18,509 bases of DNA, taken from the IMG/VR virus record IMGVR_UViG_3300039321_000032, positions 1-18,509 of that record; one strand, written 5' to 3'. The position numbers were made by a program, and so were the translations under genes. The stretch comes from a virus. This document shows, one piece after another, positions 4,271 through 18,509 of the stretch. Numbering within the stretch: the stretch's first letter is position 1; each line of letters opens with the position of its first letter. The notes beneath the pieces are model-generated. The model was not told the origin of the DNA. It worked only from the letters and a program-made list of their open reading frames with translations, and searched no databases.

Positions 4271-4649
4271 AACTTACGTATGTATTAGGTTTGTCGTATT
4301 GATAATTATTATTCTCATAATCTCCAATTCTTATTAATCCTGTTCCCAATATAGGTATTGGTTTACCAGCAACTAATATCTGAGTACCATTAGTAAGAGT
4401 ATTATTATATGTAACCAGAATAACTGGATTGCCATATAACTCTGATCTAAATGGATTGTTTACATCAACTATAACTTGAAATTTATTTGGATTAGTAAAT
4501 AAAATATATTGATATTCACCGTCTCTCATTCCTTCTTGAAGTGTAATATCAAACTTATAGTAGATATTCTCAGAATAATTCTGATTTTCAAGATTAAATG
4601 TATAAACTTCTTTAGTAGTTGTATTTTGCATTAATAAAGTATAATTCAT
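4257..4649 (-). CDS. hypothetical protein (130 aa), first gene after the 4650-4802 intergenic region
   Basis: Intact track ORF with a TAA stop and a 14-nt overlap with the portal start. No recognisable motif. Confidence 0.6.
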   Translation of the reverse strand: MNYTLLMQNTTTKEVYTFNLENQNYSENIYYKFDITLQEGMRDGEYQYILFTNPNKFQVIVDVNNPFRSELYGNPVILVTYNNTLTNGTQILVAGKPIPILGTGLIRIGDYENNNYQYDKPNTYVSYERK

Positions 4650-4724
4650 ATTTTACAGCAATTTACATTAGTTTTACATATCTTTTTCTTAAAATATAAA
4701 CCAATTTACTAATGTATTAAAATA

Positions 4725-4752
4725 ATTAAAGGAGACCTAAGCCTCCTTTAAT
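4725..4752 (-). terminator. stem-loop downstream of the fibre/LRR block (putative intrinsic terminator)
   Basis: 10-bp stem ATTAAAGGAG (4725-4734) / CTCCTTTAAT (4743-4752) with an 8-nt loop. On the minus strand it is followed by TTATTTTAAT. It lies 51 nt after the LRR-C stop at 4803. Confidence 0.5.
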
Positions 4753-4769
4753 GTCAAGTTTTTTACTCA
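4750..4769 (-). promoter_or_regulatory. conserved 20-nt intergenic motif, copy 1 (minus strand TGAGTAAAAAACTTGACATT)
   Basis: Identical 20-mer at 14239-14258. Contains a TTGACA hexamer. Weaker similarity continues on the minus-strand 5' side (TTTATTT..CTTAG.TAC). Confidence 0.4.
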
Positions 4770-4802
4770 CTCAAAGTACTAAGAAAAAATAAAAATAGAC
4801 AA

Positions 4803-5774
4803 TTAGTTTGAACTTGCTAAAGTTCAGTTTTTAGATGTAGCTAATGATTTCTGTTCTTCAGTAAGTGCATTATAAATGTTAGTATAAAAAGTTAAAGTTT
4901 TGGTATCCTTTCCAGTTAAATCACTAACATTTGTAATAATATCAGTTACTGATTGACTATTTAGTGCTCTAAAATTTGCTAAATTCATACTTTTATCAGC
5001 TCCTTCAACACCCCCAAAATAAGTAACAATAGTATTAGTAGATGCACATATTGAAGTTTTATTTAGATCTCCTGTTAATGTGCAATTATTTAATTTAATT
5101 TTTCCTACTGTTGTAACACCCTCATTATATGAACTAAAGTAATTATATAAAGATAGTTGTCCATTAATAACTTCAATTTCAGGAACATTACTGCTAACAG
5201 AATAAAAGAAAAATTGTAAAGATGATACACCAGTATCAACTTCATTTATCACTTTTAAAGTAGTTGGTAAATTAGAAGCATTAAAGAATGTTCTTGCTGC
5301 ATAATTTCAACTAGAGGATAAGGTATTAATTAATTCTAAATTATTTAGTGTGCCTTGAAATCCAGAAAATGCATACGAATCCCCAACACTAGTTCTTATA
5401 TTATCAATATATATATTATATGTGTTTTGGAAGGCATATGATGCGTTATATACTTTAGACAGATCAATATGACTTGATATATCTATTGTAGATATGAAAT
5501 TAGTCCCATCAAATCAATAATTTATATTATCTGGAAGAGAATATTCTATATTATTATATTGCTCTTGTGTCATACTAGAATGTGCAAATGTTAATCCATA
5601 ATCATTTAAATTAATCTTTCCTCCACCACCTCCAGAAATCTGTCCTATCTTATCAGCATAGCTTCTAAAGGTATCGGAATCTGATACAGCAACACCTTTA
5701 GCTACAATAGCATCTTTAATGGCACTCTTAGTACCTTCAAGATACGTTAATTTATCAGAAATTGTATTTGCCAT
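4803..5774 (-). CDS. BspA/DUF285-like leucine-rich-repeat tail protein, paralogue C (323 aa)
   Basis: Track ORFs 5514..5774 and 4824..5252 are in one frame, joined through TGAs at 5514-5516, 5307-5309 and 4824-4826, ending at TAA 4803-4805. Repeats of the YAF/MF...L type are present. The C-terminal block ...DLTGKDTKTLTF...LTEEQKSLATSKN-W-TLASSN is paralogous to 6671..7792 and 10419..11372. Confidence 0.8.
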
Positions 5775-5775
5775 A

Positions 5776-6429
5776 TTAGATTACCTCACCATTAATTGTA
5801 TCAAGAGTAGTTGAAATATTACCAATCTGAGCTTGAATTGCTGAGATTTCTCCATCTAACTCTGTCATCTTTGTATTATATGCATCTGTAGTTACATAGT
5901 TTGATAACTCACTTTTATCTGCTTTAAGTGCAACTTCATCTTTAGTAGCTAATCCAGATACATCAGGAATCTTATTCTCTACAGTTGTAAGCTCTTCTTT
6001 AGTAGCAAAATCACTAGTATCAGGAATTTCTGCTTTAGTTGCATAATTACTTAAATCTACAGATAGTTGCAAACCTTCTCCATTTCTATGTAAAGATAGA
6101 GGTTGATTAGCTTGGAATACTTCCATCTTAGAAGTTTCTAACTCCTCAACTTCCCCTTTAAGATTAGTAATCTCTGTATTAATTGGAACAAGCTTAGCAT
6201 CTATAGATTGATCTACTAAAGGAGGAACTTGATCTTCAATACTTTCTGTTACTTTAGTATTAATTAACTCTTCTGCTTTCTCCTCAGAAATGTAATTACC
6301 TTTAGGTTGGAATCTTTCATCTGCTTCAATCTTAGTATAAGAACCAACAGGAAGTTGTCCAGATTCAATACCACATTTCTTACTAACATAGAAAGTTTGT
6401 GTATTTTTAGTATTCTTAAGTATAATCAT
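5776..6429 (-). CDS. tail fibre protein B (217 aa, coiled-coil with repeated Y-A-T-K motifs)
   Basis: Intact track ORF with a TAA stop. LQLSVDLSNYATKAEIPDTSDFATKEELTTVENKIPDVSGLATKDEVALKADKSELSNY resembles LSVDLSTYATNDKV... in fibre A. Confidence 0.75.
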   Translation of the reverse strand: MIILKNTKNTQTFYVSKKCGIESGQLPVGSYTKIEADERFQPKGNYISEEKAEELINTKVTESIEDQVPPLVDQSIDAKLVPINTEITNLKGEVEELETSKMEVFQANQPLSLHRNGEGLQLSVDLSNYATKAEIPDTSDFATKEELTTVENKIPDVSGLATKDEVALKADKSELSNYVTTDAYNTKMTELDGEISAIQAQIGNISTTLDTINGEVI

Positions 6430-6431
6430 AA

Positions 6432-6668
6432 TTATCTAACTTTTATTGATTCCTCATACTCTTTAGAAGCTTTAATAGCTAATTCTTTATATTCAGCATC
6501 TTTATCTAAAGAGACTTCTGATAGATGCTCTAAATCGCAACTTAAAGGACAGATACATTCGGTAAATGAACTATATGTTTTAATATCCATTCCTTCTTTA
6601 TAGTTAGTAAGTACATAACCTTCTTCTGGACTAACTACTTTATATTTTTCTTTAATTTCAATTTTCAT
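6432..6668 (-). CDS. small conserved protein, paralogue B (78 aa; possibly a fibre assembly or adaptor factor)
   Basis: Track ORF 6432..6695 trimmed to the ATG at 6668, 2 nt after the LRR-B TAA (6671-6673). EEGYVLTNYKEGMDIKTYSSFTECICPL aligns with DEGYFITSYKEGDDIKEYSASTILYCPL of 10198..10419. Confidence 0.6.
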   Translation of the reverse strand: MKIEIKEKYKVVSPEEGYVLTNYKEGMDIKTYSSFTECICPLSCDLEHLSEVSLDKDAEYKELAIKASKEYEESIKVR

Positions 6669-6670
6669 AA

Positions 6671-7792
6671 TTATGCAACTCGATTTATACTTCAATTCTT
6701 TGAAGCTATTAATGATTTCTGTTCATTTGTAAGTTTATCATATGCAGTAGATTTTAATGATATACTTGTATAAGAAGCTACTGCTGTGCCAATAGATTCT
6801 GCTATAGTTTGTAATGAATCCGTAGATAGATTTGGAGATTGTGCAAAATAAAGAATTCCTCCTTTAGTTAAACTCTCTCCTAATCCATTTAAAGCTCCTA
6901 CAGTAACTAATTCTGGACAATTTGCAGCAAAACTAGTACAATCTGTAACAAGATGACAATCTATTTCTGGTGTAGCTGTTAATCTACTACAAGTACTAAA
7001 CATATAGCTTATATCTGTAATTCCAGTAAAGGTAAAATTACTTGGAATAGTTGTTAGATATAATGCTCTACGAAACATATGATTACAATCTCCTTTAAAG
7101 GGAATATTAATCGTTATATTATCTATATTAGTAGCTCCATCAGCTGTATCTGCAAATGCCCATTTTGGATCTACTAATACAAGATTTTGAAAATTATTCA
7201 TTACAGAGAAATCATTATTATCTATTTTTACTCCAATAAATAAATAATTTGCACTTACTTCTTTAGTAGTTGTAGGTATTTTAACATTAGATAAAGTAGC
7301 ACTATGTATTGTTTGACCCCAAAATTGAGATTCACTAGACCATTTTCCATATGCTTCATTAAGATTAGTAATCTCCTGGTTATTTAGATCAAAATGAGAT
7401 GTGTCAAAAAACCCTCCTTTTCTACTTAAATCTCCACTATTTAACTTTACATCTGCATATGTTTGAGCAGAACCTATAATACTACAAAGAGGTACACCAT
7501 CTATATTAAGGGCTAATTCACTTAAATCAGCAGTGAAGCTAATTACTGTAGAATTAGAACCAGATCCTCTACCCATTCAATCCCTTTGTATATCATTTAT
7601 AGTTCCATCATAACTGCTAAATACATAACTGCAAGGATCAACTATTGTAGTACCTTGAGGAACTGGATTAGCAACTGTAACCATCTGTGGATTACAAGGA
7701 TTGATAGGCCAGACTTTGGTACTGCCGACATAAATAGCAGTACCTTGTCTGTCACCTACATAAAATGTTTTTAAATCATCTCTAATATTCAT
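6671..7792 (-). CDS. BspA/DUF285-like leucine-rich-repeat tail protein, paralogue B (373 aa)
   Basis: Track ORFs 7577..7792 and 6692..7576 are in frame, joined by TGA 7577-7579. A second TGA at 6692-6694 extends the end to ...EQKSLIASKN-W-SINRVA, with TAA at 6671-6673. Confidence 0.75.
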
Positions 7793-7793
7793 A

Positions 7794-10196
7794 TTATTCT
7801 ACAATTAAATATTGTGTATTAGGATCTTTAGTTGATAAACCATCATACTCTGATTGAGTTAGAACAGTAATAGTATTTATTTGAGGTTGGGTTCCAGTTC
7901 CAGCTTCAATATAGTTTCCAGCAGGCTGAATACCTAAATCTGATAAACTCTTATTGCCAGATAACTCAACAGAATTAATCTGAGGTTTATTTGTTAACTG
8001 AGTATAGTCAGTAGTCCCTCCACCTCCAGATATTTCGAGATTACCTTCTCCTAAAATACTTTCACCATTAATAGTCTTTATATTAGTCCCAGAGACTAAT
8101 TGCTCTTGATAACTATGATAACTAGTATCTGCTGATACTCCAGTTGGAGTAATAGTAGTTTGAACCAAAGTATGATTAGCTGTAGTACTTTCAAAATGGA
8201 AAGTAGCTTGAATATTTTCTCCTGAAACAAAACATACTTCTGGAGCTGCTATATCACCATAACCTAGAATATTTACATAATAAAGCTCAAATGGTGTTTT
8301 ATTAGCTATAGCATTCTTAACAGCAGCGAAATCTCCAGAAAGATGAGTAGTGGAATTTATAAATAGAAATGGAATATTAGAACCACTTTCAATTTCTATA
8401 TTACCTTCTCCAAGTAAAGACTGACTATTGATTGTTTTGATATTAGTTCCACTTACAAGTAAATCTTGCTTAGTAGCCATCTCTTTATCAAGTGAATCAA
8501 TCTTATTTCCATCTTCTTCTTGCTTTGTTTTAATAATTGATATGTCTGAAGTATTAGTTGCTACTTGAGTAGATAAAGATTCTACCACAGAAGAATCAGC
8601 TTTACCAGCAAGTTCTGTTTTTGTTGCATAATCTCCTACAGGCTGTTTAGTAGCAAGCTGCTCATCAACATAAGTCTTATCTGCTTTACCTGCTAAATCT
8701 CCAGAAACCTCTGCTTCAGTTACAAAGTTAGAATCATTAGTAAGCTCACTAACTTTAGTTGGAATATCACTCTTTAAAGCATAATCTCCTTTATCTTGTT
8801 TTAGATCTATTTTTCCTTCTAAAGAAGTTTCTAATGTATTAACCTTATCATTAGTTGCATAAGTAGATAAATCTACAGATAATTGAGTCTTATCTTCATT
8901 AAAAGCTAATGGAGCTTGAGGAGCAAATACTCCTTGTTTTTCCTCAAGTTTGGCATCTACTTCTTCTTTAGTATATCCTTTATTAATAAGATCAATCTCA
9001 GTAACTTTAACAGTCATATTACCATTATTTACTAAGATTGCATTAATAACTACTAATACACCATTATCTTGGAAATAATAGCCATATAAATCAATAGTTT
9101 CAGGATGTTCAATAGTTGCAACAGGAATAACTATAATATCACCTTTATATGTAATCTGGCAGAATAAATAGAAGTCCAGATTAGTTCTAATAAAGTCATA
9201 GATATGTTTCTGTCTTACAGGATCATTCTCATCTAAATTAAGTAAGAAATGATTCTCAAAAGCAGAGATTACATTATCTATAATAGATATATTCTTTCCT
9301 GCTGTAAGCGTTCCCTGTTTTGAAGCTATCTCTTTATTAATAGCTGTATTTAAAGCATCAATTTCAGCTTTGGTATATTTATCTGCTAATTGTGCGTATA
9401 GAGGGCCATTAACAATACCAGCTTGGTTAGTCTCTGTATTATATATTGGAAGTTCAACTGCTTCTCCAGTTTGATTACCAAATACAGGAGCTAAAGTAAC
9501 TTTAGATGGGACTGATTGAATATTAATGGCAGGTACGATTGAAGCTGCTCCAGATAATTCAGTTCCATTTAAAGATGGTTTGTTACGAATAGTATTATAA
9601 TCTGCAGAAATAGTATTCTCTTCAATTACTATACCATCACCTTGGTTTAATTTATTCTGTTTAGAATTTATTGCACTTTCAGTAGCTTCTTTTGTAAGAT
9701 AATTATCTTCAACTCATTTTTCAGTAGCATATCCATCTAAGCTACTAATAAACCCACTATCATTAGTTAATTGTGAAGTTTTTGTTGGTATCTCAGATTT
9801 ATCAGCTTTATTGGCAACTGCATCTGAAATTTCAGTTGTAACCTCTTCTTTAGTTGGATAATCAGCTAATCGTTCAGTTATCTGATTATCAATATTTTCA
9901 GCACTTGGAATAGTACTCTTTATTTGCTCTAACTCAGAATTAATAGTAACAATATCTTCAGATGACGCTAATCCCAACTCTTCTGAAGTCATATTACCAT
10001 TTAACTCAATACTATTGATCTCAGGTTTATCCTGAAGATCAAAATAGCTATTAGTAGCTAACTGAGAACCATCCATAACCTTAACTTCATCATCCTTGTC
10101 AATAACAATAACTTTAGTCACATTTGACTTATCTATTGTTTCGACTTCAAGGACATTAAGATAAGGAAGAATTGTCTTTTCAGTTTCGTTTGCCAT
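7794..10196 (-). CDS. tail fibre protein A (800 aa)
   Basis: Track ORFs 9714..10196 and 7794..9017 share a frame. TGA 9714-9716 (...GYATEK-W-VEDNYLTKEA...) plus 232 further codons with no TAA or TAG (checked line by line) join them. Contains fibre motifs KPEINSIELNGN, NKPSLNGTELSG, KPQINSVELSGNKSLSDLGI and VSGTNIKTING.S.LGEGN. Confidence 0.75.
8028..8102 (-). repeat. intragenic repeat, copy 2 (QLVSGTNIKTINGESILGEGNLEIS)
   Basis: Second copy of the unit at 8388-8462. The two copies bracket a 95-aa segment. Confidence 0.7.
8388..8462 (-). repeat. intragenic repeat, copy 1 (LLVSGTNIKTINSQSLLGEGNIEIE)
   Basis: 25-aa unit repeated exactly 360 nt (120 aa) downstream in the gene. The shared DNA core attaccttctcc occurs in both copies. 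Confidence 0.7.
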
Positions 10197-10197
10197 A

Positions 10198-10419
10198 TTA
10201 TTTATTTTTATAAGATTCCTCTTGTTCTTTTAAATATCTTTCATTTGTTTCTGCATCAATAACCCTATAAATAGATATATCAAAGGTTAAAGGGCAATAT
10301 AAAATAGTTGATGCACTATACTCTTTAATATCATCACCTTCTTTATATGAGGTAATAAAATATCCTTCATCAGAGTATAACTTTATAAATATGCTAGTTT
10401 CAATATGTAAATGTTCCAT
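10198..10419 (-). CDS. small conserved protein, paralogue A (73 aa)
   Basis: Intact track ORF. Its ATG overlaps the LRR-A stop (TAATG at 10417-10421), and its TAA lies 1 nt before the fibre A ATG. Paralogous to 6432..6668. Confidence 0.6.
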   Translation of the reverse strand: MEHLHIETSIFIKLYSDEGYFITSYKEGDDIKEYSASTILYCPLTFDISIYRVIDAETNERYLKEQEESYKNK

Positions 10420-11372
10420 TATGCTAATATCCAGTTTTTATTAGTAGCTATTGCTTTCTGTTCATCTGATAATTTTGCCAGATTGGTAGCTCCTAATGTT
10501 AAAGTTTTGCTATTCTCCCCTGTTAAATCAACTAATGCATTAATAACAGACATTAAAGAATCAGTAGTAAGATTGGTACTTGCTGATAGATATAATCCTG
10601 CTCTAAGCTCACCGTTTACTGTAAGATTAGTAATTCCACCACATTTTGAAAATATAGGATTTATTGAACCTTCTTGATTTGTGTATGATGGAATGTTTAA
10701 TGTTACGTCTGTTAATCTAATGCAATCTCCAAACATATTAGTAGTAGTTACTAATTTAGGAGCATCTAAATTAAGTGTTTTCAGGCTATTATATCCAGGT
10801 AAGGCACCTCTGCTAAACATATTAGACCCATCTGTTAATTCAGGCATTGGAATAGTGAATGATGTTAAATCAGCACATTCTGTAAACATATATCTGCCAT
10901 CTTCTAATTTAGGCAATTGCATAGTGAACTCCTTAATGTTTGATCTTTGACATTTATATCTTCCATCAACTAAATTTTCTCAACCTACAACATTTGCAGG
11001 AACAGATGTTCCCGTAAACCTATATAAATTAACTACAGCTTGCGTAATATCATAAGTTGAAGAAGTTGGCACATTAATAGTAGCTTCAACTTTCTCCATA
11101 ACATCATAATCAGAGTCAGGAAGAATCTCTATTGGTCCATTCTGAGTAATTGTAATTGCTTTGGAAGCTTGAACTGTAGGAACTACTACATCAACAGATA
11201 CATTTACCTTAGACATTCCATCATATCCCTCATCTGGCAGTACTTCAAACTCTGCATTTTGAGTATATTCTACTGATTTTTCTTGTAACTTACATTCAGC
11301 AGCTTTAATTAAATCTAAATTTTTAGTTGTAGTATTTTTAGCTACTGGTTCTGATGTGAATACTATTGCCAT
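10419..11372 (-). CDS. BspA/DUF285-like leucine-rich-repeat tail protein, paralogue A (317 aa)
   Basis: Track ORFs 10980..11372 and 10419..10922 are in frame, joined by TGA 10980-10982 plus 19 open codons. N-terminal tandem units (...EFEVLPDEGYDGMSKVNVSVDV / ...PIEILPDSDYDVMEKVEATINV) precede the LRR repeats (MFTECADLTSF, NMFGDCIRLTDV). The C-terminus ...SDEQKAIATNKNWILA uses TGG for its Trp. Confidence 0.8.
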
Positions 11373-11425
11373 ATTATTTTTCTATAAAATATAAATTATT
11401 CATTATGTGGTATATAAACAAAATA

Positions 11426-11453
11426 AGGGGCAAGTAAATTAATACTCGCCCCT
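11426..11453 (-). terminator. intrinsic terminator after the head-module operon
   Basis: Minus-strand stem AGGGGCGAGTA/TACTTGCCCCT (one A/C mismatch, 6-nt loop) followed by TATTTTGTTTAT. It starts 11 nt after the TAA at 11464. Confidence 0.65.
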
Positions 11454-11463
11454 CTTTCTGTTA

Positions 11464-11988
11464 TTAAGCACCTACAACGCTTTGGATAGCTTCTGCAGAT
11501 AACTCATAAGGATAAGAATCTGAATCTGTTGAAAGTGTCAGAGTATAAGCATTCTGATCACCTTTAGCAGTACCAGTAACACCCGTACCAGCGGAAGCGC
11601 TTACATAATCATCTTTACCTAAGAACCAATACTTACCATTGCTATCTTCAACAACAACTGCAAGCTGACCAATTGATAAAGCTGCAATCTCTACTCGTTT
11701 TGCTGTTTCCATCTTTGTAAATACAAGAGCAAGCTCATTACTTACATAATTAACACCAGCACTTTCATCTACATTTAAAGTTGAGGTTAGAGAACCAGTA
11801 GCCTTTCTAAATTGGTAGTTATACCATTTAGCTGAAGACTCAAGAGTAATAGCTGAAATCATATTGCTCTCAGGATCAACCGTTACACTTTTAACATCTG
11901 CATACTGGGTAATCCATACCTGTTTGATTCCACCCAATGAAGGTTGGCAATCAAGTGTGATTCCTGCGATAGTTATTAAACAAGCCAT
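11464..11988 (-). CDS. abundant structural protein (174 aa; major tail or head-associated protein, function uncertain)
   Basis: Intact track ORF directly after the capsid gene and before a terminator. Higher GC than its surroundings, no TGA, TAA stop. Confidence 0.7.
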   Translation of the reverse strand: MACLITIAGITLDCQPSLGGIKQVWITQYADVKSVTVDPESNMISAITLESSAKWYNYQFRKATGSLTSTLNVDESAGVNYVSNELALVFTKMETAKRVEIAALSIGQLAVVVEDSNGKYWFLGKDDYVSASAGTGVTGTAKGDQNAYTLTLSTDSDSYPYELSAEAIQSVVGA

Positions 11989-14356: not shown

Positions 14357-17116
14357 TTAGAAACTTGCATTTGATTCTGTAACTGCAACTTTAGTTTGAG
14401 CATTAGTAATATCACTCTCAACTACATAGCATTTAACAGGTTCATTTAATAAATCAGTCTCTTTATCACCAAGTAAGTTTCGAGTGTATTCTACAGGAGT
14501 AGTGTTTAAAGCAGCAGGTGCTGCAACAGATGCAGAAGCAGAAGATGCAGATGCTCCACTAGTTTCATCTACTTCTCAAATCTTTTTAACATTAGCTATA
14601 CCAGCTGCAATTGCTGCAGCAGCGGCGGCAGCACCTAAAGCTGGACCTACAACTGGAATACCAGCCATTGCAGAATAAGCACTGTTAGCTGCACTATATG
14701 TATCAATTAAAGCTTGAGCTGTTGCGAATCCTTTACCTACTTTACTTTCCTCTCCTCATATAGTTGCCATACTTCCTGCAACCTTTGATGCTAGATCAAG
14801 GCGAGCTTTTATAGATTCTTGATATTGCTTATTAACATTTTCTCTAACTTTGTTTTTCTTATTTTCTCTGTCTATTTCATTTTCAGTTAATTGCTCATCA
14901 ATAGAATCTAATTCTAGTTTAATAAGTTTTCTCTGATCAGCTGTTAAAGTCTCATTTTCTAATTGTTTTAATAGAAAAGACTTCTGCTCCTCCAATCTTG
15001 TTTTTATTTGATTATTATATTTATCTATAGAACCTTCTTCAGTATCTGTTCCTAATAAACGATCTTTATATCCCTCTATGTCTTTTTTGCTTGAATAAGA
15101 GAACTCACCACTTAATCCAAATATTTTGGCAAATCCTTGTGTATATTGAGTTTTAGGAATTTCTAAAGATGGATCTTTTATATCATACCTTGCCTCGCGC
15201 ATTCTTTTTAACTCAGTCTGCAGATCATCTCAAGCTTTATCCGCAGCACTTTTTCTTGCATTTTCTTCATCTTCTCTAGCTTTATCTCTAATTTTCTTCA
15301 GCTCTTCTTGATGCCAAGCCTCAACTTCTTCAATACTTCTATTATTTTTAATAGCTAGTGCTAATAGTCTAATATATTCATCTTCAAGTTCATCTACTGG
15401 GTCTTTATCCTCTAATCTCTTTTGAAGCCATTCATCAAATTCATTTATTACCTTCTTAGCTTCAGTAGTGTTCTTTGTAATAGTTGGAATATTAAAGAAC
15501 CCACCATACTTTTTATTAGTATCTGCTACATCCTCAAATAGCTTTTTAATCCTTTTCTCAATGTCTTTATTTAAATCATCCAACTGTTTATAAGTATTCT
15601 CTTTATTTTGCTTTGTATACTCATAAATTGTATTTGAATAATCTTTTCAGAACATTGCTGTAGCTTTAAAAGCCTGCCAAGCAGATGCCTCTCCAAAGCT
15701 TGTATCAGAAATTTGATTCTCCAGTTCAGTACGTTTATTTAAATACTCCTCATAAAGCTTAATTGCAGCCTGTTCAATAGCCTGAGCTTTTGCTCTTGCA
15801 GTTAATGCTTCTACATAATTACCAGTATTATTTACAAACGCATCTTCTGCAGTCTTTACATTAGTAATATTTAAACCAGTCTCTTTAATCTTATCGGAAT
15901 ATTGCTCTATAAACTTACGCTTAGCATCTGCAGAATCTCCAACCCTTTCGTAAGCTATTTGTAACTCTCTAAAGATAGCTATAGATTTAGAAGCAATCTG
16001 ATTAGTAGTATCTGTAATAGACTTTCTAAATTCAGCAGCCTCCTTTTCAGCTGATTTTATTGAGGATATATACTCTATTATCTTATTAATAGCTACTCCA
16101 ATAGCTGTAGCTAATGCAATTCATACAGTTACATTACCAATAGTTTTAAGTGCAGTTTTAACTTTACCTACTCCAGAAGCAGCTTGTTCTGAAGCTTCAG
16201 CCATTGCTTTCTGAGCCTCTGCCCCTTTTCGCAAAGTTGGAATGCCTTTTTCTACATTTTCCTTTAATTCAGCAAGATCTACACCTAAACGTTTAGCAGC
16301 TTTCTGCATTCTCTCTGCTGGAGTTCCAGTCTCTTTTGCTGCTTCCTTTAAAAATTCAGCAACTGTAGTAACTGTAGGTTTTACTTCTTCAAAGGACTTT
16401 TTTGCAGTTTCTCCTAATTTACCTATAATCGGAATCGTATTAGATACACTCTTATTAGTAGCAGATATTTCAGCAGGAGTGCCCATTACTCCTTGAATCA
16501 TACCTCCTTTAAAATTAATATTGGTGCCTTCTAAATCCTTGACTACTTTAGAGATATTACCTAATTCAGTTCCAACATTACCAACAGATGTGCCAATGCC
16601 ATTAAGCTTAGATGCATCAATCTGATTAAGATTTTTGGCAGCATTATTCAACCCTGTATTAAATGGAGAGATAAAATCAGTTAATTTCTTAAACCAATTA
16701 CCTAAAGTAGGCAATTCTTCTAATAAATCTTTTATACCTCCAATACCTTGTACTAATGCAATAGATGACTGTAACTTAACCATTACTTTATTTAAATCTT
16801 CTGATTCTTTCCCAAATAAAGTAATAGCAGCAGTTGCAGCTCCATATCCACTGGCCAAACCAGTGGATATTTTAGCTACACTTTCAAACCTTTGAGCAGT
16901 AGTTCTTGAAGATCTTGCTATCTGCTCATTAATTTTATTGAACTCTGATTGTCTTTTACCTAGTAATGCAAGAGTTTCATTATATTCCTTAGTACCAATC
17001 TCTAAATCATTCAGAGAACTAGATAATGCGTCAATATCTTTCTTTAAAGAGTTTATTGATTTATTACTTGATTTAGTATCAATACTAATAACCTTTTTAA
17101 TTTCTGTTTGTGCCAT
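14357..17116 (-). CDS. tape-measure-like protein (919 aa)
   Basis: Track ORFs 16121..17116, 15230..15583 and 14756..15202, plus an unlisted C-terminal part, are one frame through five TGAs (16121-16123, 15647-15649, 15230-15232, 14756-14758, 14576-14578), ending at TAA 14357-14359 (checked line by line). Long coiled-coil stretches and Gly/Ala-rich hydrophobic segments (GLASGYGAATAAITLFG; GIPVVGPALGAAAAAAAIAAGIA) are typical of tape-measure proteins. Confidence 0.75.
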
Positions 17117-18509
17117 TAGATTGTAATATTTTTAACAGTATCTTCTGTTAGTGTTAAATTCTCTGTATATTTAACTGTTCCTGTAGGTCCATCAGTCACT
17201 TCAAATTTAAACTGAACACCTTTTTGAGCATATATTCTATAATTTCCATTATCCTGCATATAAGCCACATTCAAGAAGTTATCGTTTTCTGTAAGTATCT
17301 GATTTACCCCAGTTGGTATAGTGCCACTTGGAGTTTCTAATTTGCCTGTAATAAGAACAGCTTTATTTGGGTCTGGAGTTTGAGTAAACATACATTTAGG
17401 ACCATCTACGCCTCCTTGTTTATAAAGACTAAAGTAGAAACTCCTTTGATTATATGTAGTATTCTCATTATAAGTAACTGTTAATTCTGTTTCTCCAGGT
17501 TGCCCAGATTCAGGTGTAATGCTTACAATTTCATTTGGACTATATCATCCTAATTCTCAAGGAATATTAGAAGTAACTGTAATCTTTTTAGTCCCAGCTT
17601 TATAATCTACAACTGGATCTGAATCATCAAATGATATATATTCACCTAGATTTTGAACTCCAGCTAAATAACTATTAATATCTTGAACTTTAATAAATTC
17701 ACATCTAACTGTAGAATCTGAATTAATATCATAAGCATCAATCTTATTAAGTATCCAGTAAGAATCTTCAAAATAATAGAACTGTCTAAGTAAATCATAC
17801 TTAACATCTAAATCATCCAATCTTACAAAACAAGTAACTTTCTTAGTATTAACATCAAATTGATCATTATAAAATTCACTTCAGAATCTACTATAAATAG
17901 TACTTCCGATATTATAAGTTATATCATCAATATAAATCTCTTGTGGTAATCCAAAATCTCAAGAAGCAGTAACATTAGAGGACGAAACGGTATACCTTGT
18001 AAATTGAGGTAATACAGTTCTCTTTATAGCAATTTTATTCCCACTAATATCTTTCTCACTTTTAGTAGATATATAACACATTTCCTGATCATTTAATATG
18101 TTCATTTCTGTAAGATCATCTGTAATTCAATATGTTACTTCATTTCCTTTTACATCAGTTAAAGGAACATTACCGTTAAAGAATACTAGGGATTGAGAGA
18201 TATCCTCTAAAGATTCCTCATTACCATCAATTGAGAAAAATACATTTTTGGCAAATATATCATTACCTGCGATTTTATATCATTCTGTGGTTTTAGAGGG
18301 ATCTATAAAATTAGCTCCGTATAACTCTTGATCTATAGTCTTAAGTTCAGTAGTGCTATTATTAAATAATGTATAGGTAATATTATCATTCATAAATGCA
18401 GGAACTACAAGGGAAGAAGAATTGTAAAAATTTCTAAAATATTTATTTCTCCATCTTGCAGAAACTATATTTTCATATATATTATCACTATACAGTTCAG
18501 TTGTTTCAG
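17116..18509 (-). CDS. tail-associated structural protein with C-terminal BACON/Ig-like domain (over 464 aa, 5' end outside the window)
   Basis: One frame is open from the right window edge to TAA 17116-17118 if six TGAs are sense (18280-18282, 18127-18129, 17959-17961, 17881-17883, 17557-17559, 17545-17547). It absorbs track ORFs 17557..17820 and 17116..17391. ITVTSNIPWELGWYSPNEIVSITPESGQPGETELTVTYNENTTYNQRSFYF matches the BACON-type pattern. The stop overlaps the tape-measure ATG (TAATG). Confidence 0.75.

What the first reader, a model, noticed from the sequence alone, without database searches (positions are those of the whole stretch)
4803..11372. Triplicated receptor-binding cassette: LRR protein, small protein, fibre
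The same gene order occurs twice in full: LRR-A 10419-11372, small-A 10198-10419 and fibre A 7794-10196; then LRR-B 6671-7792, small-B 6432-6668 and fibre B 5776-6429. A third LRR protein (4803-5774) follows. The LRR paralogues share a conserved C-terminal block (...TDSL..I...DLTG...KTLT....LT.EQK..A..KNW..) but have unrelated N-terminal halves. The small proteins share the core EGY.(L/I)T.YKEG.DIK.YS......CPL. Fibres A and B share LSVDLS.YAT motifs. About 6.5 kb, a third of the window, is given over to diversified adhesin-like modules. This suggests a multivalent or switchable host-recognition apparatus built by cassette duplication. BspA/DUF285-type LRR proteins as a repeated partner of phage fibres are not a well-described arrangement.
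Basis: partly seen in the sequence, partly recalled or inferred. Interest (0 to 1): 0.65.

Follow-up and report, generated by a model that had tools for sequence, protein, structure and literature searches.

The report
Phage fibre locus with LRR adhesins
An uncultured phage that reads TGA as tryptophan carries one seven-gene block of two conserved tail fibres, three hypervariable leucine-rich-repeat-type proteins and two tiny partner proteins, which is most likely an unusual multi-adhesin host-recognition kit and not a recently triplicated or switchable cassette.

Summary
Under that code all seven genes sit at the stated coordinates. Paralogue similarity is far above shuffles (z 7-15).

LRR-A belongs to a BspA-type (LRR_5/DUF285-PARCEL) family. 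LRR-B shares about 150 C-terminal residues with it. LRR-C shares only the roughly 60-75-residue C-terminal block.

About 30 related ~30-kb phage genomes change the reading:
- The recurring unit is LRR gene plus small gene, not LRR-small-fibre. This pair recurs in unrelated standard-code phages.
- LRR-A plus small-A is present in only about half of the relatives.
- LRR-C never has a small partner.
- Each slot keeps its own invariant N-terminus and a conserved C-terminal cap, while the middle is hypervariable. The fibres are as conserved as the portal.
- LRR-A's C-terminal block is closer to blocks in unrelated phages than to its own paralogues, so the copies are ancient.

I found no inverted repeats, recombinase, reverse transcriptase or slippery tracts, so "switchable" has no support.

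Best reading: differently anchored LRR adhesins on conserved fibres, diversified by exchange of the LRR middle. The C-terminal block (3,439 cluster representatives) and the small protein (no fold match) are uncharacterised families. Virion incorporation is not shown.

The parts
11425..11454 (-). Terminator-like hairpin (12-bp stem followed by a T run) between gene 11464-11988 and LRR-A. It forms the upstream boundary of the seven-gene block.
10419..11372 (-). LRR-A, 317 aa, with one in-frame TGA=Trp. Slot-A N-terminus MAIVFTSEPVAK. Optional in relatives.
11064..11288 (-). LRR-A residues 29-103: two copies of a ~35-40-aa beta repeat (ITxNGxxxIxPDxGYDGxSxVxVxV). Homologues carry up to 5-6 copies. 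Likely a stalk or spacer.
10587..11063 (-). LRR-A residues 104-262: BspA-type LRR array with 23-residue periodicity (z=4.2). This is the variable part of the protein.
10422..10586 (-). LRR-A residues 263-317: conserved C-terminal helix-strand-helix-helix-strand block ending NKNWILA.
10198..10419 (-). small-A, 73 aa. Its start overlaps the LRR-A stop (TAATG). Predicted as five beta strands plus a C-terminal helix (pLDDT 94.7). No solved-structure match.
7794..10196 (-). Fibre A, 800 aa, with typical tail-fibre motifs. As conserved among relatives (0.85) as the portal (0.86).
7800..7874 (-). Fibre A residues 775-799: Pfam Phage_tail_C tip domain (37.7 bits, cut-off 23.7).
6671..7792 (-). LRR-B, 373 aa, with two in-frame TGA. 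Invariant slot-B N-terminus MNIRDDLKTFYV... (residues 1-30, 7703-7792). Variable centre. C-terminal ~150 aa are homologous to the LRR-A family (hhalign 98.5%). C-block lies at about 6674-6865.
6432..6668 (-). small-B, 78 aa, paralogue of small-A. It starts 2 nt after the LRR-B stop.
5776..6429 (-). Fibre B, 217 aa, a coiled-coil-like short fibre. Its N-terminus is invariant in relatives. It shares the QLSVDLS.YAT patch with fibre A.
4803..5774 (-). LRR-C, 323 aa, with three in-frame TGA. Invariant slot-C N-terminus (residues 1-62, 5589-5774) and hypervariable centre. Only the C-terminal ~60-75 residues (4806-5003) are demonstrably homologous to the LRR-A family. No small partner gene follows.
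4725..4752 (-). Terminator-like hairpin (12-bp stem followed by a T run) after LRR-C. It forms the downstream boundary of the block.

Best explanation
The block 4803-11372 is the host-recognition operon of an uncultured, ~30-kb, TGA=Trp tailed phage.

Composition:
- Two conserved fibre proteins (A long, B short).
- Three solenoid-type adhesins. LRR-A and LRR-B are BspA/PARCEL-type LRR proteins. LRR-C is a relative recognisable only through its C-terminal block.
- Two ~75-aa partner proteins.

Proposed domain layout of each adhesin:
- A slot-specific, invariant N-terminal module, inferred to dock it at its own site on the tail or on a fibre.
- A hypervariable central repeat domain, inferred to bind the receptor.
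- A conserved C-terminal helical cap.

Proposed way of diversifying: host range changes when the central domain is exchanged by recombination between the conserved N- and C-terminal flanks, and when the whole LRR-A plus small-A module is gained or lost. It does not change by an on/off switch.

The small protein belongs with the LRR gene upstream of it as a two-gene module. It is inferred to be an assembly factor or adaptor for that adhesin.

Shown: gene structure, paralogy, LRR family membership at profile level, synteny, the conservation pattern, and the absence of switch machinery.
Inferred: virion incorporation, receptor binding, docking by the N-termini, and the role of the small protein.
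For: Context:
- The block lies inside the structural module, between the major capsid protein with gene 11464-11988 on one side and the portal on the other. A tape-measure-like protein, protease, scaffold and endolysin are nearby.
- It is bracketed by two terminator-like hairpins.
- Its genes are joined by TAATG, TAATATG or TAATTATG junctions.
- Fibre A carries Pfam Phage_tail_C above its cut-off.

LRR identity:
- The profile of the LRR-A family hits solved BspA-type LRR proteins 4gt6, 4fs7 and 4h09 at E 1.6e-14 to 2e-7.
- 25 of 30 family members hit LRR_5 and 6 hit DUF285.
- The AF2 model has pLDDT 83 and all 50 top Foldseek hits are LRR proteins.
- LRR-A has 23-residue periodicity, z=4.2.
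- Slot-B alleles in relatives pass the DUF285 and LRR_5 cut-offs.

Anchor-variable-cap pattern, measured as identity to the window protein across about 20-30 distinct orthologues:
- LRR-B: 0.96 for residues 1-20, then 0.46-0.58 in the centre.
- LRR-C: 0.99/0.97 for residues 1-40, 0.40-0.53 in the centre, 0.96 for residues 301-320.
- LRR-A: 0.93 at the C-terminus, 0.52-0.69 in the LRR part.
- For comparison, fibres A and B (0.85), portal (0.86) and capsid (0.92) are uniformly conserved.
- N-termini are slot-specific in 77 proteins.

No Sec-type or lipoprotein signal is visible at any of the three N-termini (read).

Two-gene module:
- The small gene directly follows the LRR gene in L019, L036, L072, L073 and L082-84, and lies close by in L080. 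These include standard-code contigs with 28-49% GC.
- There the pair often sits just before the lysis genes, which is the usual place for receptor-binding genes.

Module gain and loss.

The C-block always follows LRR_5 or DUF285 arrays: 8 of 10 large carriers scanned.
Against: - No proteomic or structural evidence that any of the LRR or small proteins is in the virion. No host is known.
- LRR-A itself is below the Pfam LRR_5 cut-off (19.4 against 27.7 bits). LRR-B and LRR-C have no Pfam or NCBIfam hit.
- The centre of LRR-C shows no profile similarity to LRRs and only marginal 27-residue periodicity (z 3.3 against a 95% shuffle bound of 3.2).
- Foldseek E-values for the LRR-A model are weak (best 0.018).
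- The small protein is missing after LRR-A in L011 and after LRR-B in L026, so it is not strictly required in cis.
- Within the family, small-B co-varies about equally with LRR-B (Mantel r 0.55) and fibre B (0.46). Its partner is therefore assigned from cross-family synteny only.
- LRR solenoids are normally monomeric, whereas most known phage receptor-binding proteins are trimers.
Confidence: 0.55

Rival explanations
1. A three-gene cassette (LRR, small protein, fibre) was duplicated in tandem, with a third partial copy, giving a switchable or phase-variable receptor-binding apparatus.
For: The order LRR-small-fibre does occur twice and is followed by a third LRR gene. All three gene classes show significant paralogy.
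Against: - LRR-A plus small-A is present or absent independently of fibre A.
- The LRR-small pair occurs without a following fibre in unrelated phages.
- LRR-C never has a small partner.
- The fibres differ fourfold in length and share only short motifs.
- The paralogues are more diverged from one another than LRR-A is from proteins of unrelated phages.
- DNA identity between copies is limited to patches of at most 61 nt.
- No inverted repeats, invertase, reverse transcriptase or slippery tracts were found.
Confidence: 0.08
2. The LRR proteins are displayed on the virion but bind animal-host material (mucus, epithelium), as bacterial BspA proteins do. They would hold the phage in the gut mucus layer and would not recognise the bacterial receptor. 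The conserved fibres would then be the true receptor-binding proteins.
For: BspA-type LRR proteins of bacteria are adhesins to host tissue (established knowledge of the family). The fibres are complete and fibre A has a tip domain. LRR-A is dispensable in about half of the relatives.
Against: Variation among otherwise near-identical phages is concentrated in the LRR centres, while the fibres are as conserved as the portal. That pattern is expected for an arms race with bacterial receptors. It is not expected for binding to conserved mucins.
Confidence: 0.15
3. The LRR and small proteins are not virion components. They would be intracellular or released accessory factors, for example superinfection exclusion, host take-over or anti-defence proteins, that happen to be encoded among the late genes.
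For: No direct evidence places them in the virion. There are no PHROG or Pfam structural annotations for them. The small protein fold has no known relatives.
Against: - They lie in one tightly coupled operon with two fibres inside the structural module.
- They have slot-specific invariant N-termini followed by variable domains, as in modular receptor-binding proteins.
- Their position just before the lysis genes in other phages is typical of tail-fibre genes.
- Homologues carry N-terminal stalk-like repeats or Ig-like arrays.
Confidence: 0.1

Closest known systems
BspA-type LRR surface proteins (Pfam LRR_5, PF13306; solved examples 4gt6, 4fs7, 4h09) and DUF285/PARCEL repeat proteins (PF03382, TIGR02167)
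   Same: The LRR-A family profile matches the solved BspA-type LRR proteins (E down to 1.6e-14). Most members hit LRR_5 and some hit DUF285. LRR-A has 23-residue periodicity. Slot-B alleles and distant relatives carry bona fide DUF285/PARCEL repeats.
   Different: - Encoded in a phage structural operon.
- No signal peptide, lipobox or cell-wall anchor is visible.
- Short proteins (about 280-500 aa) with phage-type N-terminal modules and a conserved C-terminal block that has no Pfam model.
- The three window proteins themselves fall below the curated cut-offs.
Modular phage receptor-binding proteins with a conserved N-terminal anchor and an exchangeable distal domain, together with a downstream tail-fibre assembly or chaperone gene (for example lambda/Mu/P2 Tfa, T4 gp38 and gp57A). 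This comparison rests on established knowledge and was not tested by homology.
   Same: Invariant N-terminus and hypervariable distal part. A small gene immediately downstream travels with the adhesin gene. Several adhesins are encoded per genome. Location is at the end of the tail module.
   Different: - The variable domain is an LRR solenoid, not a trimeric beta-helix or beta-sandwich head.
- The extreme C-terminus is conserved, not variable.
- The small protein has no sequence or fold similarity to any known chaperone.
- The small protein is absent after some alleles.
TGA-recoded (code 4) gut phages described by Borges et al. (bioRxiv 10.1101/2021.08.26.457843)
   Same: [quoted passage not shown] No suppressor tRNA was detected, which that paper reports for 65% of code-4 phages.
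   Different: Here TGA sense codons are spread over most genes, including small and presumably early ones, and TGA is never used as a stop. The genome is only ~30 kb. Membership of any named clade was not tested.
PARCEL/DUF285 giant ORFs in jumbo Vibrio phage vB_VhaM_pir03 (PMC7765460)
   Same: DUF285/BspA-type repeats encoded by a phage, of unknown function.
   Different: Those are 19-kb and 3.7-kb genes in a jumbo myovirus. They show no reported fibre context, small partner or C-terminal block. Only one weak tblastn hit to any cultured phage was found here (Vibrio phage HNL01, 30% identity).

Membership tests
BspA-type LRR (Pfam LRR_5, PF13306) | The protein scores above the Pfam gathering cut-off (27.7 bits). 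| tested here: not met
   LRR-A scores 19.4 bits (E 0.0011). LRR-B and LRR-C have no hit. The near-identical P0001 scores 22.4 bits.
BspA-type LRR (Pfam LRR_5, PF13306) | Family-level homology to LRR_5 and to solved BspA-type LRR structures. | tested here: met
   For the LRR-A family: 25 of 30 members hit LRR_5 (best 1.6e-28). The profile hits 4gt6, 4fs7 and 4h09 at E 1.6e-14, 4.2e-14 and 2.1e-7. LRR-B aligns to this profile over 144 columns (98.5%). LRR-C aligns only over its last 59-74 residues.
BspA-type LRR (Pfam LRR_5, PF13306) | Tandem repeats of about 23 residues forming a solenoid. | tested here: inconclusive
   LRR-A: lag 23, z=4.2 (significant), and an AF2 model with regularly spaced strands whose Foldseek hits are all LRR proteins, though with weak E-values. 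LRR-B: lag 23, z=2.0 (not significant). LRR-C: lag 27, z=3.3 against a 95% bound of 3.2 (marginal). No structure was predicted for LRR-B or LRR-C.
DUF285 / PARCEL repeat proteins (PF03382, TIGR02167) | Match to the repeat model above its cut-off. | tested here: not met
   None of the three window proteins matches. The feature is met by a slot-B allele of relative L017 (31.9 bits against 25), by LRR-A homologues P0033 and P0042, and by distant relative L082_288 (TIGR02167 112 bits).
Bacterial BspA/PARCEL cell-surface proteins | Export signal (signal peptide or lipobox) and a surface anchor. | tested here: not met
   By reading the N-termini (MAIVFTSEPVAK..., MNIRDDLKTFYV..., MANTISDKLTYL...), there is no hydrophobic signal-like segment. 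The proteins end in the KNW(I/T/S) block with no anchor. No dedicated signal-peptide predictor was available.
Phage tail fibre | Recognised tail-fibre domain in a structural-module context. | tested here: met
   Fibre A: Pfam Phage_tail_C 37.7 bits (cut-off 23.7), plus PHROG fibre-like families. Fibre B: weak PHROG minor tail protein hit (E 0.0013) and coiled-coil families. The block lies between the capsid and portal genes.
Tail-fibre assembly proteins / chaperones (Tfa, gp38, gp57A and similar) | Sequence or fold similarity to a known chaperone family. | tested here: not met
   small-A and small-B have no Pfam, PHROG (only spurious capsid hits at E>0.002) or NCBIfam family. None of 499 homologue clusters carries a Pfam domain. 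The high-confidence model (pLDDT 94.7) has no PDB match (best E 0.37). In BFVD it matches only uncharacterised proteins of uncultured phages (best E 2.9e-3, TM 0.69). Only the gene position resembles that of a chaperone.
Switchable tail-fibre systems (invertible segments such as Mu Gin/P1 Cin, shufflons; diversity-generating retroelements) | Inverted repeats flanking alternative 3' ends plus an invertase; or a reverse transcriptase with template and variable repeats. | tested here: not met
   The longest inverted repeat in 4500-11500 is 36 nt at 72% complementarity. No recombinase, integrase or reverse transcriptase appears among the Pfam hits of genes on 30-kb relatives. No homopolymer tract of 8 or more A/T or 6 or more G/C was found.
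Code-4 (TGA=Trp) recoded phage | In-frame TGA at conserved Trp positions, with ORFs and coding density restored under code 4. | tested here: met
   Relative L019 has coding density 0.90 under code 4 against 0.57 under code 11. In L088 no gene ends in TGA and 17 of 30 genes have in-frame TGA.

The most novel reading that the evidence does not exclude
BspA/PARCEL-type LRR solenoids, capped by a previously unmodelled ~55-residue C-terminal block and paired with a ~75-aa protein of novel fold, would form a widespread and so far unrecognised class of phage receptor-binding modules. The block has 3,439 cluster representatives. One virion could mount up to three of these adhesins on different anchors. 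This would be an adhesin architecture unlike the trimeric fibres and spikes that dominate current receptor-binding-protein models and predictors.
Probability: 0.35. Interest if true: 0.7.

Novelty: new variant of a known kind. Interest (0 to 1): 0.5.

Why it matters
If the LRR proteins are the specificity determinants, three consequences follow.
- A very common family of uncultured phages uses an adhesin fold that receptor-binding-protein predictors and host-range models do not cover. One exact 141-aa protein of this family is indexed in 1,472 blocks of public assemblies.
- The invariant N- and C-terminal flanks around a swappable LRR centre would be a natural scaffold for engineering host range.
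- Two conserved protein families without any model would gain a functional context: the C-terminal block and the small partner.

The case also shows that these genes are systematically truncated in public annotations made with the standard code. LRR-C, for example, appears as 86-aa fragments.

Tried and rejected
- **Table-11 reading of the region.** Rejected, because the genes are broken at TGA.
- **Megablast of the window and tblastn of the capsid protein against 50,697 GenBank phages.** No match. LRR-A gave one weak hit.
- **Structure prediction using my own code-4 translation as the first row.** The 98%-identical P0001 was used instead.
- **Foldseek of the LRR-A model against PDB.** Only weak E-values, because the model has several domains.
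- **Search with the 62-aa N-terminus of LRR-C**, meant to find other domains fused to it. It returned almost only code-11-truncated fragments and was not informative.
- **Profile comparisons of the LRR-C centre with the LRR-A family and with PDB.** Nothing beyond the C-terminal block.
- **Co-variation test to decide whether small-B goes with LRR-B or with fibre B.** Both correlate, so the test did not discriminate.
- **Host search through the capsid protein in GTDB genomes.** Only two distant hits (47-48% identity) on short, probably mis-binned contigs of an 'Azospirillum sp. CAG:239' bin and a Bacteroidaceae bin. These are not taken as host evidence.
- **tRNA scan for a TGA suppressor.** None found.
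- **Names for carriers of the C-terminal block.** None available.
- **PDB sequence searches of fibre A and of gene 11464-11988.** Nothing found.
- **Literature searches for BspA-like, LRR_5 or DUF285 proteins in phage tail fibres.** No description of this arrangement was found.
Full report
**1. The observation**

Under the standard bacterial code the region is a set of fragments. Translating 4803-11372 on the minus strand shows that every interruption is a TGA. These TGAs align with Trp in the paralogues...NKNWILA in LRR-A against ...SKN*TLA in LRR-C.

With TGA read as Trp, minus-strand ORFs tile the whole window.
- LRR-A 10419-11372 (317 aa)
- small-A 10198-10419 (73 aa)
- fibre A 7794-10196 (800 aa)
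- LRR-B 6671-7792 (373 aa)
- small-B 6432-6668 (78 aa)
- fibre B 5776-6429 (217 aa)
- LRR-C 4803-5774 (323 aa)

Public gene calls on near-identical 30-kb contigs give the same series of lengths.

Paralogue similarity is far above chance. Smith-Waterman z-scores against 300 shuffles are 12.9 (A/B), 11.0 (A/C), 7.7 (B/C), 15.0 (small A/B) and 7.1 (fibres). Unrelated pairs score about 0.

At DNA level only short patches survive, at most 61 nt at 60-89% identity. The copies are therefore old.

**2. Context**

The window is the structural and lysis half of a tailed phage. On the minus strand, from high to low coordinates, it encodes:
- a large tail protein, truncated at the window edge;
- a tape-measure-like protein;
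- prohead protease, scaffold and major capsid protein;
- a 174-aa protein (gene 11464-11988);
- the seven-gene block;
- a 130-aa protein;
- the portal and three further proteins;
- an M15 endolysin and an HNH endonuclease.

Two strong terminator-like hairpins on the minus strand, at 11454-11425 and 4752-4725, bracket the block exactly. Inside the block, genes are joined by TAATG, TAATATG or TAATTATG junctions. I infer that the seven genes form one tightly coupled transcription unit.

No cultured phage in GenBank resembles the capsid protein or the DNA. IMG/VR and public assemblies, in contrast, hold many ~30-kb relatives.

**3. What the proteins are**

*LRR-A.*
- Alone, it is below the Pfam LRR_5 cut-off (19.4 against 27.7 bits).
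- Its family is clearly BspA-type. 25 of 30 aligned homologues hit LRR_5 (best 1.6e-28) and 6 hit DUF285.
- The family profile hits the solved BspA-type LRR proteins 4gt6, 4fs7 and 4h09 at E 1.6e-14 to 2e-7.
- The AF2 model has pLDDT 83. It shows two N-terminal beta repeats, a regular strand array and a helix-strand-helix-helix-strand C-terminal cap. All 50 top Foldseek hits are LRR proteins, though with weak E-values.
- The repeat region has 23-residue periodicity, z=4.2.

*LRR-B.*
- It aligns to the LRR-A family profile over its last ~150 residues (98.5% probability).
- Other alleles in the same slot pass the DUF285 and LRR_5 cut-offs.

*LRR-C.*
- It shares only the last 59-74 residues with the LRR-A family.
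- Its centre has no detectable LRR signature.
- Its periodicity is marginal and has a 27-residue period.
- One slot-C allele (L021) and one on L089 hit LRR_5 weakly.
- 'Third LRR protein' is therefore plausible but not shown.

*Fibres.* Fibre A has the Pfam Phage_tail_C tip domain above its cut-off and typical fibre motifs. Fibre B is a short coiled-coil-like protein.

*Small proteins.*
- They form a family of 499 clusters without any Pfam domain or informative name.
- The model is confident (pLDDT 94.7; five strands plus a C-terminal helix).
- It has no PDB match (best E 0.37). In BFVD it matches only uncharacterised small proteins of uncultured phages (best E 2.9e-3, TM 0.69).

**4. What related genomes show**

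I called code-4 ORFs in 38 loci sharing the capsid protein (66-100% identity). The common order is capsid - 174-aa protein - [LRR-A, small-A] - fibre A - LRR-B - small-B - fibre B - LRR-C - 130-aa protein - portal.

Presence and absence:
- LRR-A is present in 13 of the 27 loci that cover the position and absent in 13. One locus keeps small-A alone.
- Slots B and C are present in nearly all loci.
- LRR-C never has a small partner.

Conservation pattern:
- Each slot has its own N-terminus, conserved across 77 proteins: A MAI(V/K)(F/Y)T..., B MNIRD.LK.FYV, C MANTISDKL.YL.
- Along the proteins, identity to the window copy is 0.96-0.99 in the first 20-40 residues of LRR-B and LRR-C.
- It falls to 0.40-0.58 in the centre.
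- It rises again to 0.93-0.96 in the last ~20 residues of LRR-A and LRR-C.
- Fibre A, fibre B, portal and capsid are uniformly conserved at 0.85, 0.85, 0.86 and 0.92.

So the LRR centres, not the fibres, are the diversity hotspots.

Natural deletion variants exist, although they may be assembly or defective variants:
- L007 fuses the first 43 residues of fibre B to LRR-C.
- L034 fuses the LRR-A start to the small protein.
- L011 and L026 lack a small gene after LRR-A and LRR-B respectively.

**5. The unit is LRR plus small protein, and it is widespread**

- In unrelated IMG/VR contigs (28-49% GC, most readable in the standard code), a protein with the same C-terminal block is immediately followed by a member of the small-protein family. 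This holds for L019, L036, L072, L073 and L082-84. In L080 the two genes lie close together.
- What follows the small gene differs. It is a holin-like protein and an endolysin-like protein in L082, and other genes in L072 and L073. The small gene therefore travels with the LRR gene and not with a fibre.
- Within the family, small-B co-varies about equally with both neighbours, so this assignment rests on cross-family synteny.
- The slot-C type N-terminus also recurs on clear LRR/PARCEL proteins in L036, L080 and L082. In L080 it follows a fibre-B-like protein.
- The C-terminal block alone retrieves 3,439 cluster representatives at E<=1e-3, almost always at the very C-terminus.
- 8 of 10 large carriers scanned have LRR_5 or DUF285 arrays in front of the block. 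Some also carry Big_2 or BACON domains.
- LRR-A's block is 69-75% identical to blocks of unrelated phages, but only 35-44% identical to LRR-B and LRR-C. The three copies are therefore deep lineages and not a recent in-genome triplication.

**6. Mechanism**

Best supported reading (confidence about 0.55): the block is the adsorption operon.
- Two conserved fibres act as scaffolds.
- Up to three adhesins each use a slot-specific N-terminal module to dock at their own site.
- Each adhesin presents a hypervariable solenoid surface and ends in a conserved cap.
- Diversity arises in two ways: the centre is exchanged between the conserved flanks, and the LRR-A/small-A module is gained or lost.
- Homing endonuclease genes inserted at the fibre B/LRR-C and LRR-C/130-aa junctions in relatives may promote such exchange. 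This last point is inference.
- The small protein is most simply an assembly factor or adaptor of the upstream adhesin. Its function is inferred from position only.

Nothing supports a switch:
- The longest inverted repeat is 36 nt at 72% complementarity.
- No recombinase or reverse transcriptase was seen in 30-kb relatives.
- No slippery tracts were found.

Rivals:
- Mucus or animal-tissue adhesion by virion-displayed BspA-like proteins (0.15).
- Non-structural accessory proteins (0.10).

**7. Comparison with known systems and novelty**

- Functionally the arrangement resembles modular receptor-binding proteins with downstream chaperones. No homology to any such chaperone was found, and the adhesin fold is unusual for phages.
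- The literature held here has no description of BspA/LRR_5/DUF285 proteins as tail-fibre partners.
- A 2020 paper states that PARCEL had not been described in phages before its jumbo-phage ORF (PMC7765460).
- TGA recoding in gut phages is known (bioRxiv 10.1101/2021.08.26.457843).

I rate this as a new variant of a known kind (phage host-recognition locus), with interest 0.5. The anatomy is clear and the families are uncharacterised and widespread. Virion incorporation and receptor binding remain untested.

Noticed in passing
whole window; L088 1-20426: The phage reads TGA as Trp throughout. In the 30-kb relative L088, 17 of 30 genes carry in-frame TGA, including small genes outside the structural module and the terminase, and no gene ends in TGA. 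No tRNA gene was found in the window or in 8 relatives. An M15 endolysin is present, so the host should have peptidoglycan and is unlikely to be a wall-less mycoplasma. The host and the decoding mechanism are unknown.
   Followed up: partly
L036 (IMGVR_UViG_3300029905_000019), whole locus: A relative with the same genome architecture (capsid protein 66% identical, 28% GC) reads equally well in code 11 and code 4 (coding density 0.90 in both). L019 needs code 4 (0.90 against 0.57). The code change therefore arose within this phage lineage.
   Followed up: partly
window 4803-5774 and public protein clusters P0241-P0307: Public gene calls often use the standard code and truncate these genes. LRR-C appears as 85-86-aa 'hypothetical proteins' that end at its first TGA. 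Several 30-kb contigs (L086, L087, L089) have the whole block split into fragments.
   Followed up: yes
L001 17057-17656; L014 15688-16224; L012 16879-17544; L086 7200-7685: Relatives carry free-standing homing endonuclease genes at the junctions of the block: an HNH type (178-199 aa) between fibre B and LRR-C, and a GIY-YIG type (161-221 aa) after LRR-C. These are absent from the window. They could drive the local mosaicism.
   Followed up: partly
L007 16453-17475; L034 12300-12542: Two in-frame deletion fusions occur in relatives. One joins the first 43 residues of fibre B to LRR-C at a shared KG. The other joins the first 7 residues of LRR-A to the small protein. They may be natural variants, defective genomes or assembly artefacts.
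   Followed up: no
window 11064-11288 (LRR-A residues 29-103); P0044; L036 14374-15828: There is a tandem ~35-40-aa repeat, 'ITxNGxxxIxPDxGYDGxSxVxVxV'. The window has 2 copies and homologues have up to 5-6, including a large group of ~545-aa proteins on 25-27-kb contigs. It gives weak hits to Ig-like families (Big_9, Cadherin_5) but has no model of its own. It probably forms a length-variable stalk.
   Followed up: partly
L074 10507-10698; L076 10517-10705: In two other phage contigs a short LRR protein with the same C-terminal block follows holin-like genes. It is followed by a 62-63-aa ORF (MTTSKVTVVKLAPSEGKHL...EISEEE). The small-protein HMM does not detect this ORF, but it is similar in size, position and pattern, so the small-protein superfamily may be broader.
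   Followed up: no
window 14357-17116 and 17116-18393: The tape-measure-like protein (35-99% identity) and the large upstream tail protein (55-100%; ~1,118-1,150 aa in relatives, truncated in the window) are also strongly mosaic among genomes whose capsid proteins are at least 88% identical.
   Followed up: no
L075-L079; cluster of P0348: A 512-aa canonical LRR_5 protein has a nearly identical C-terminal block (LGSTNLAKLTDEQKAIATNKNWILA). It lies on contigs of up to ~530 kb, next to a GH25-type lysin. This suggests prophages in bacterial chromosomes that might reveal hosts for that branch.
   Followed up: no
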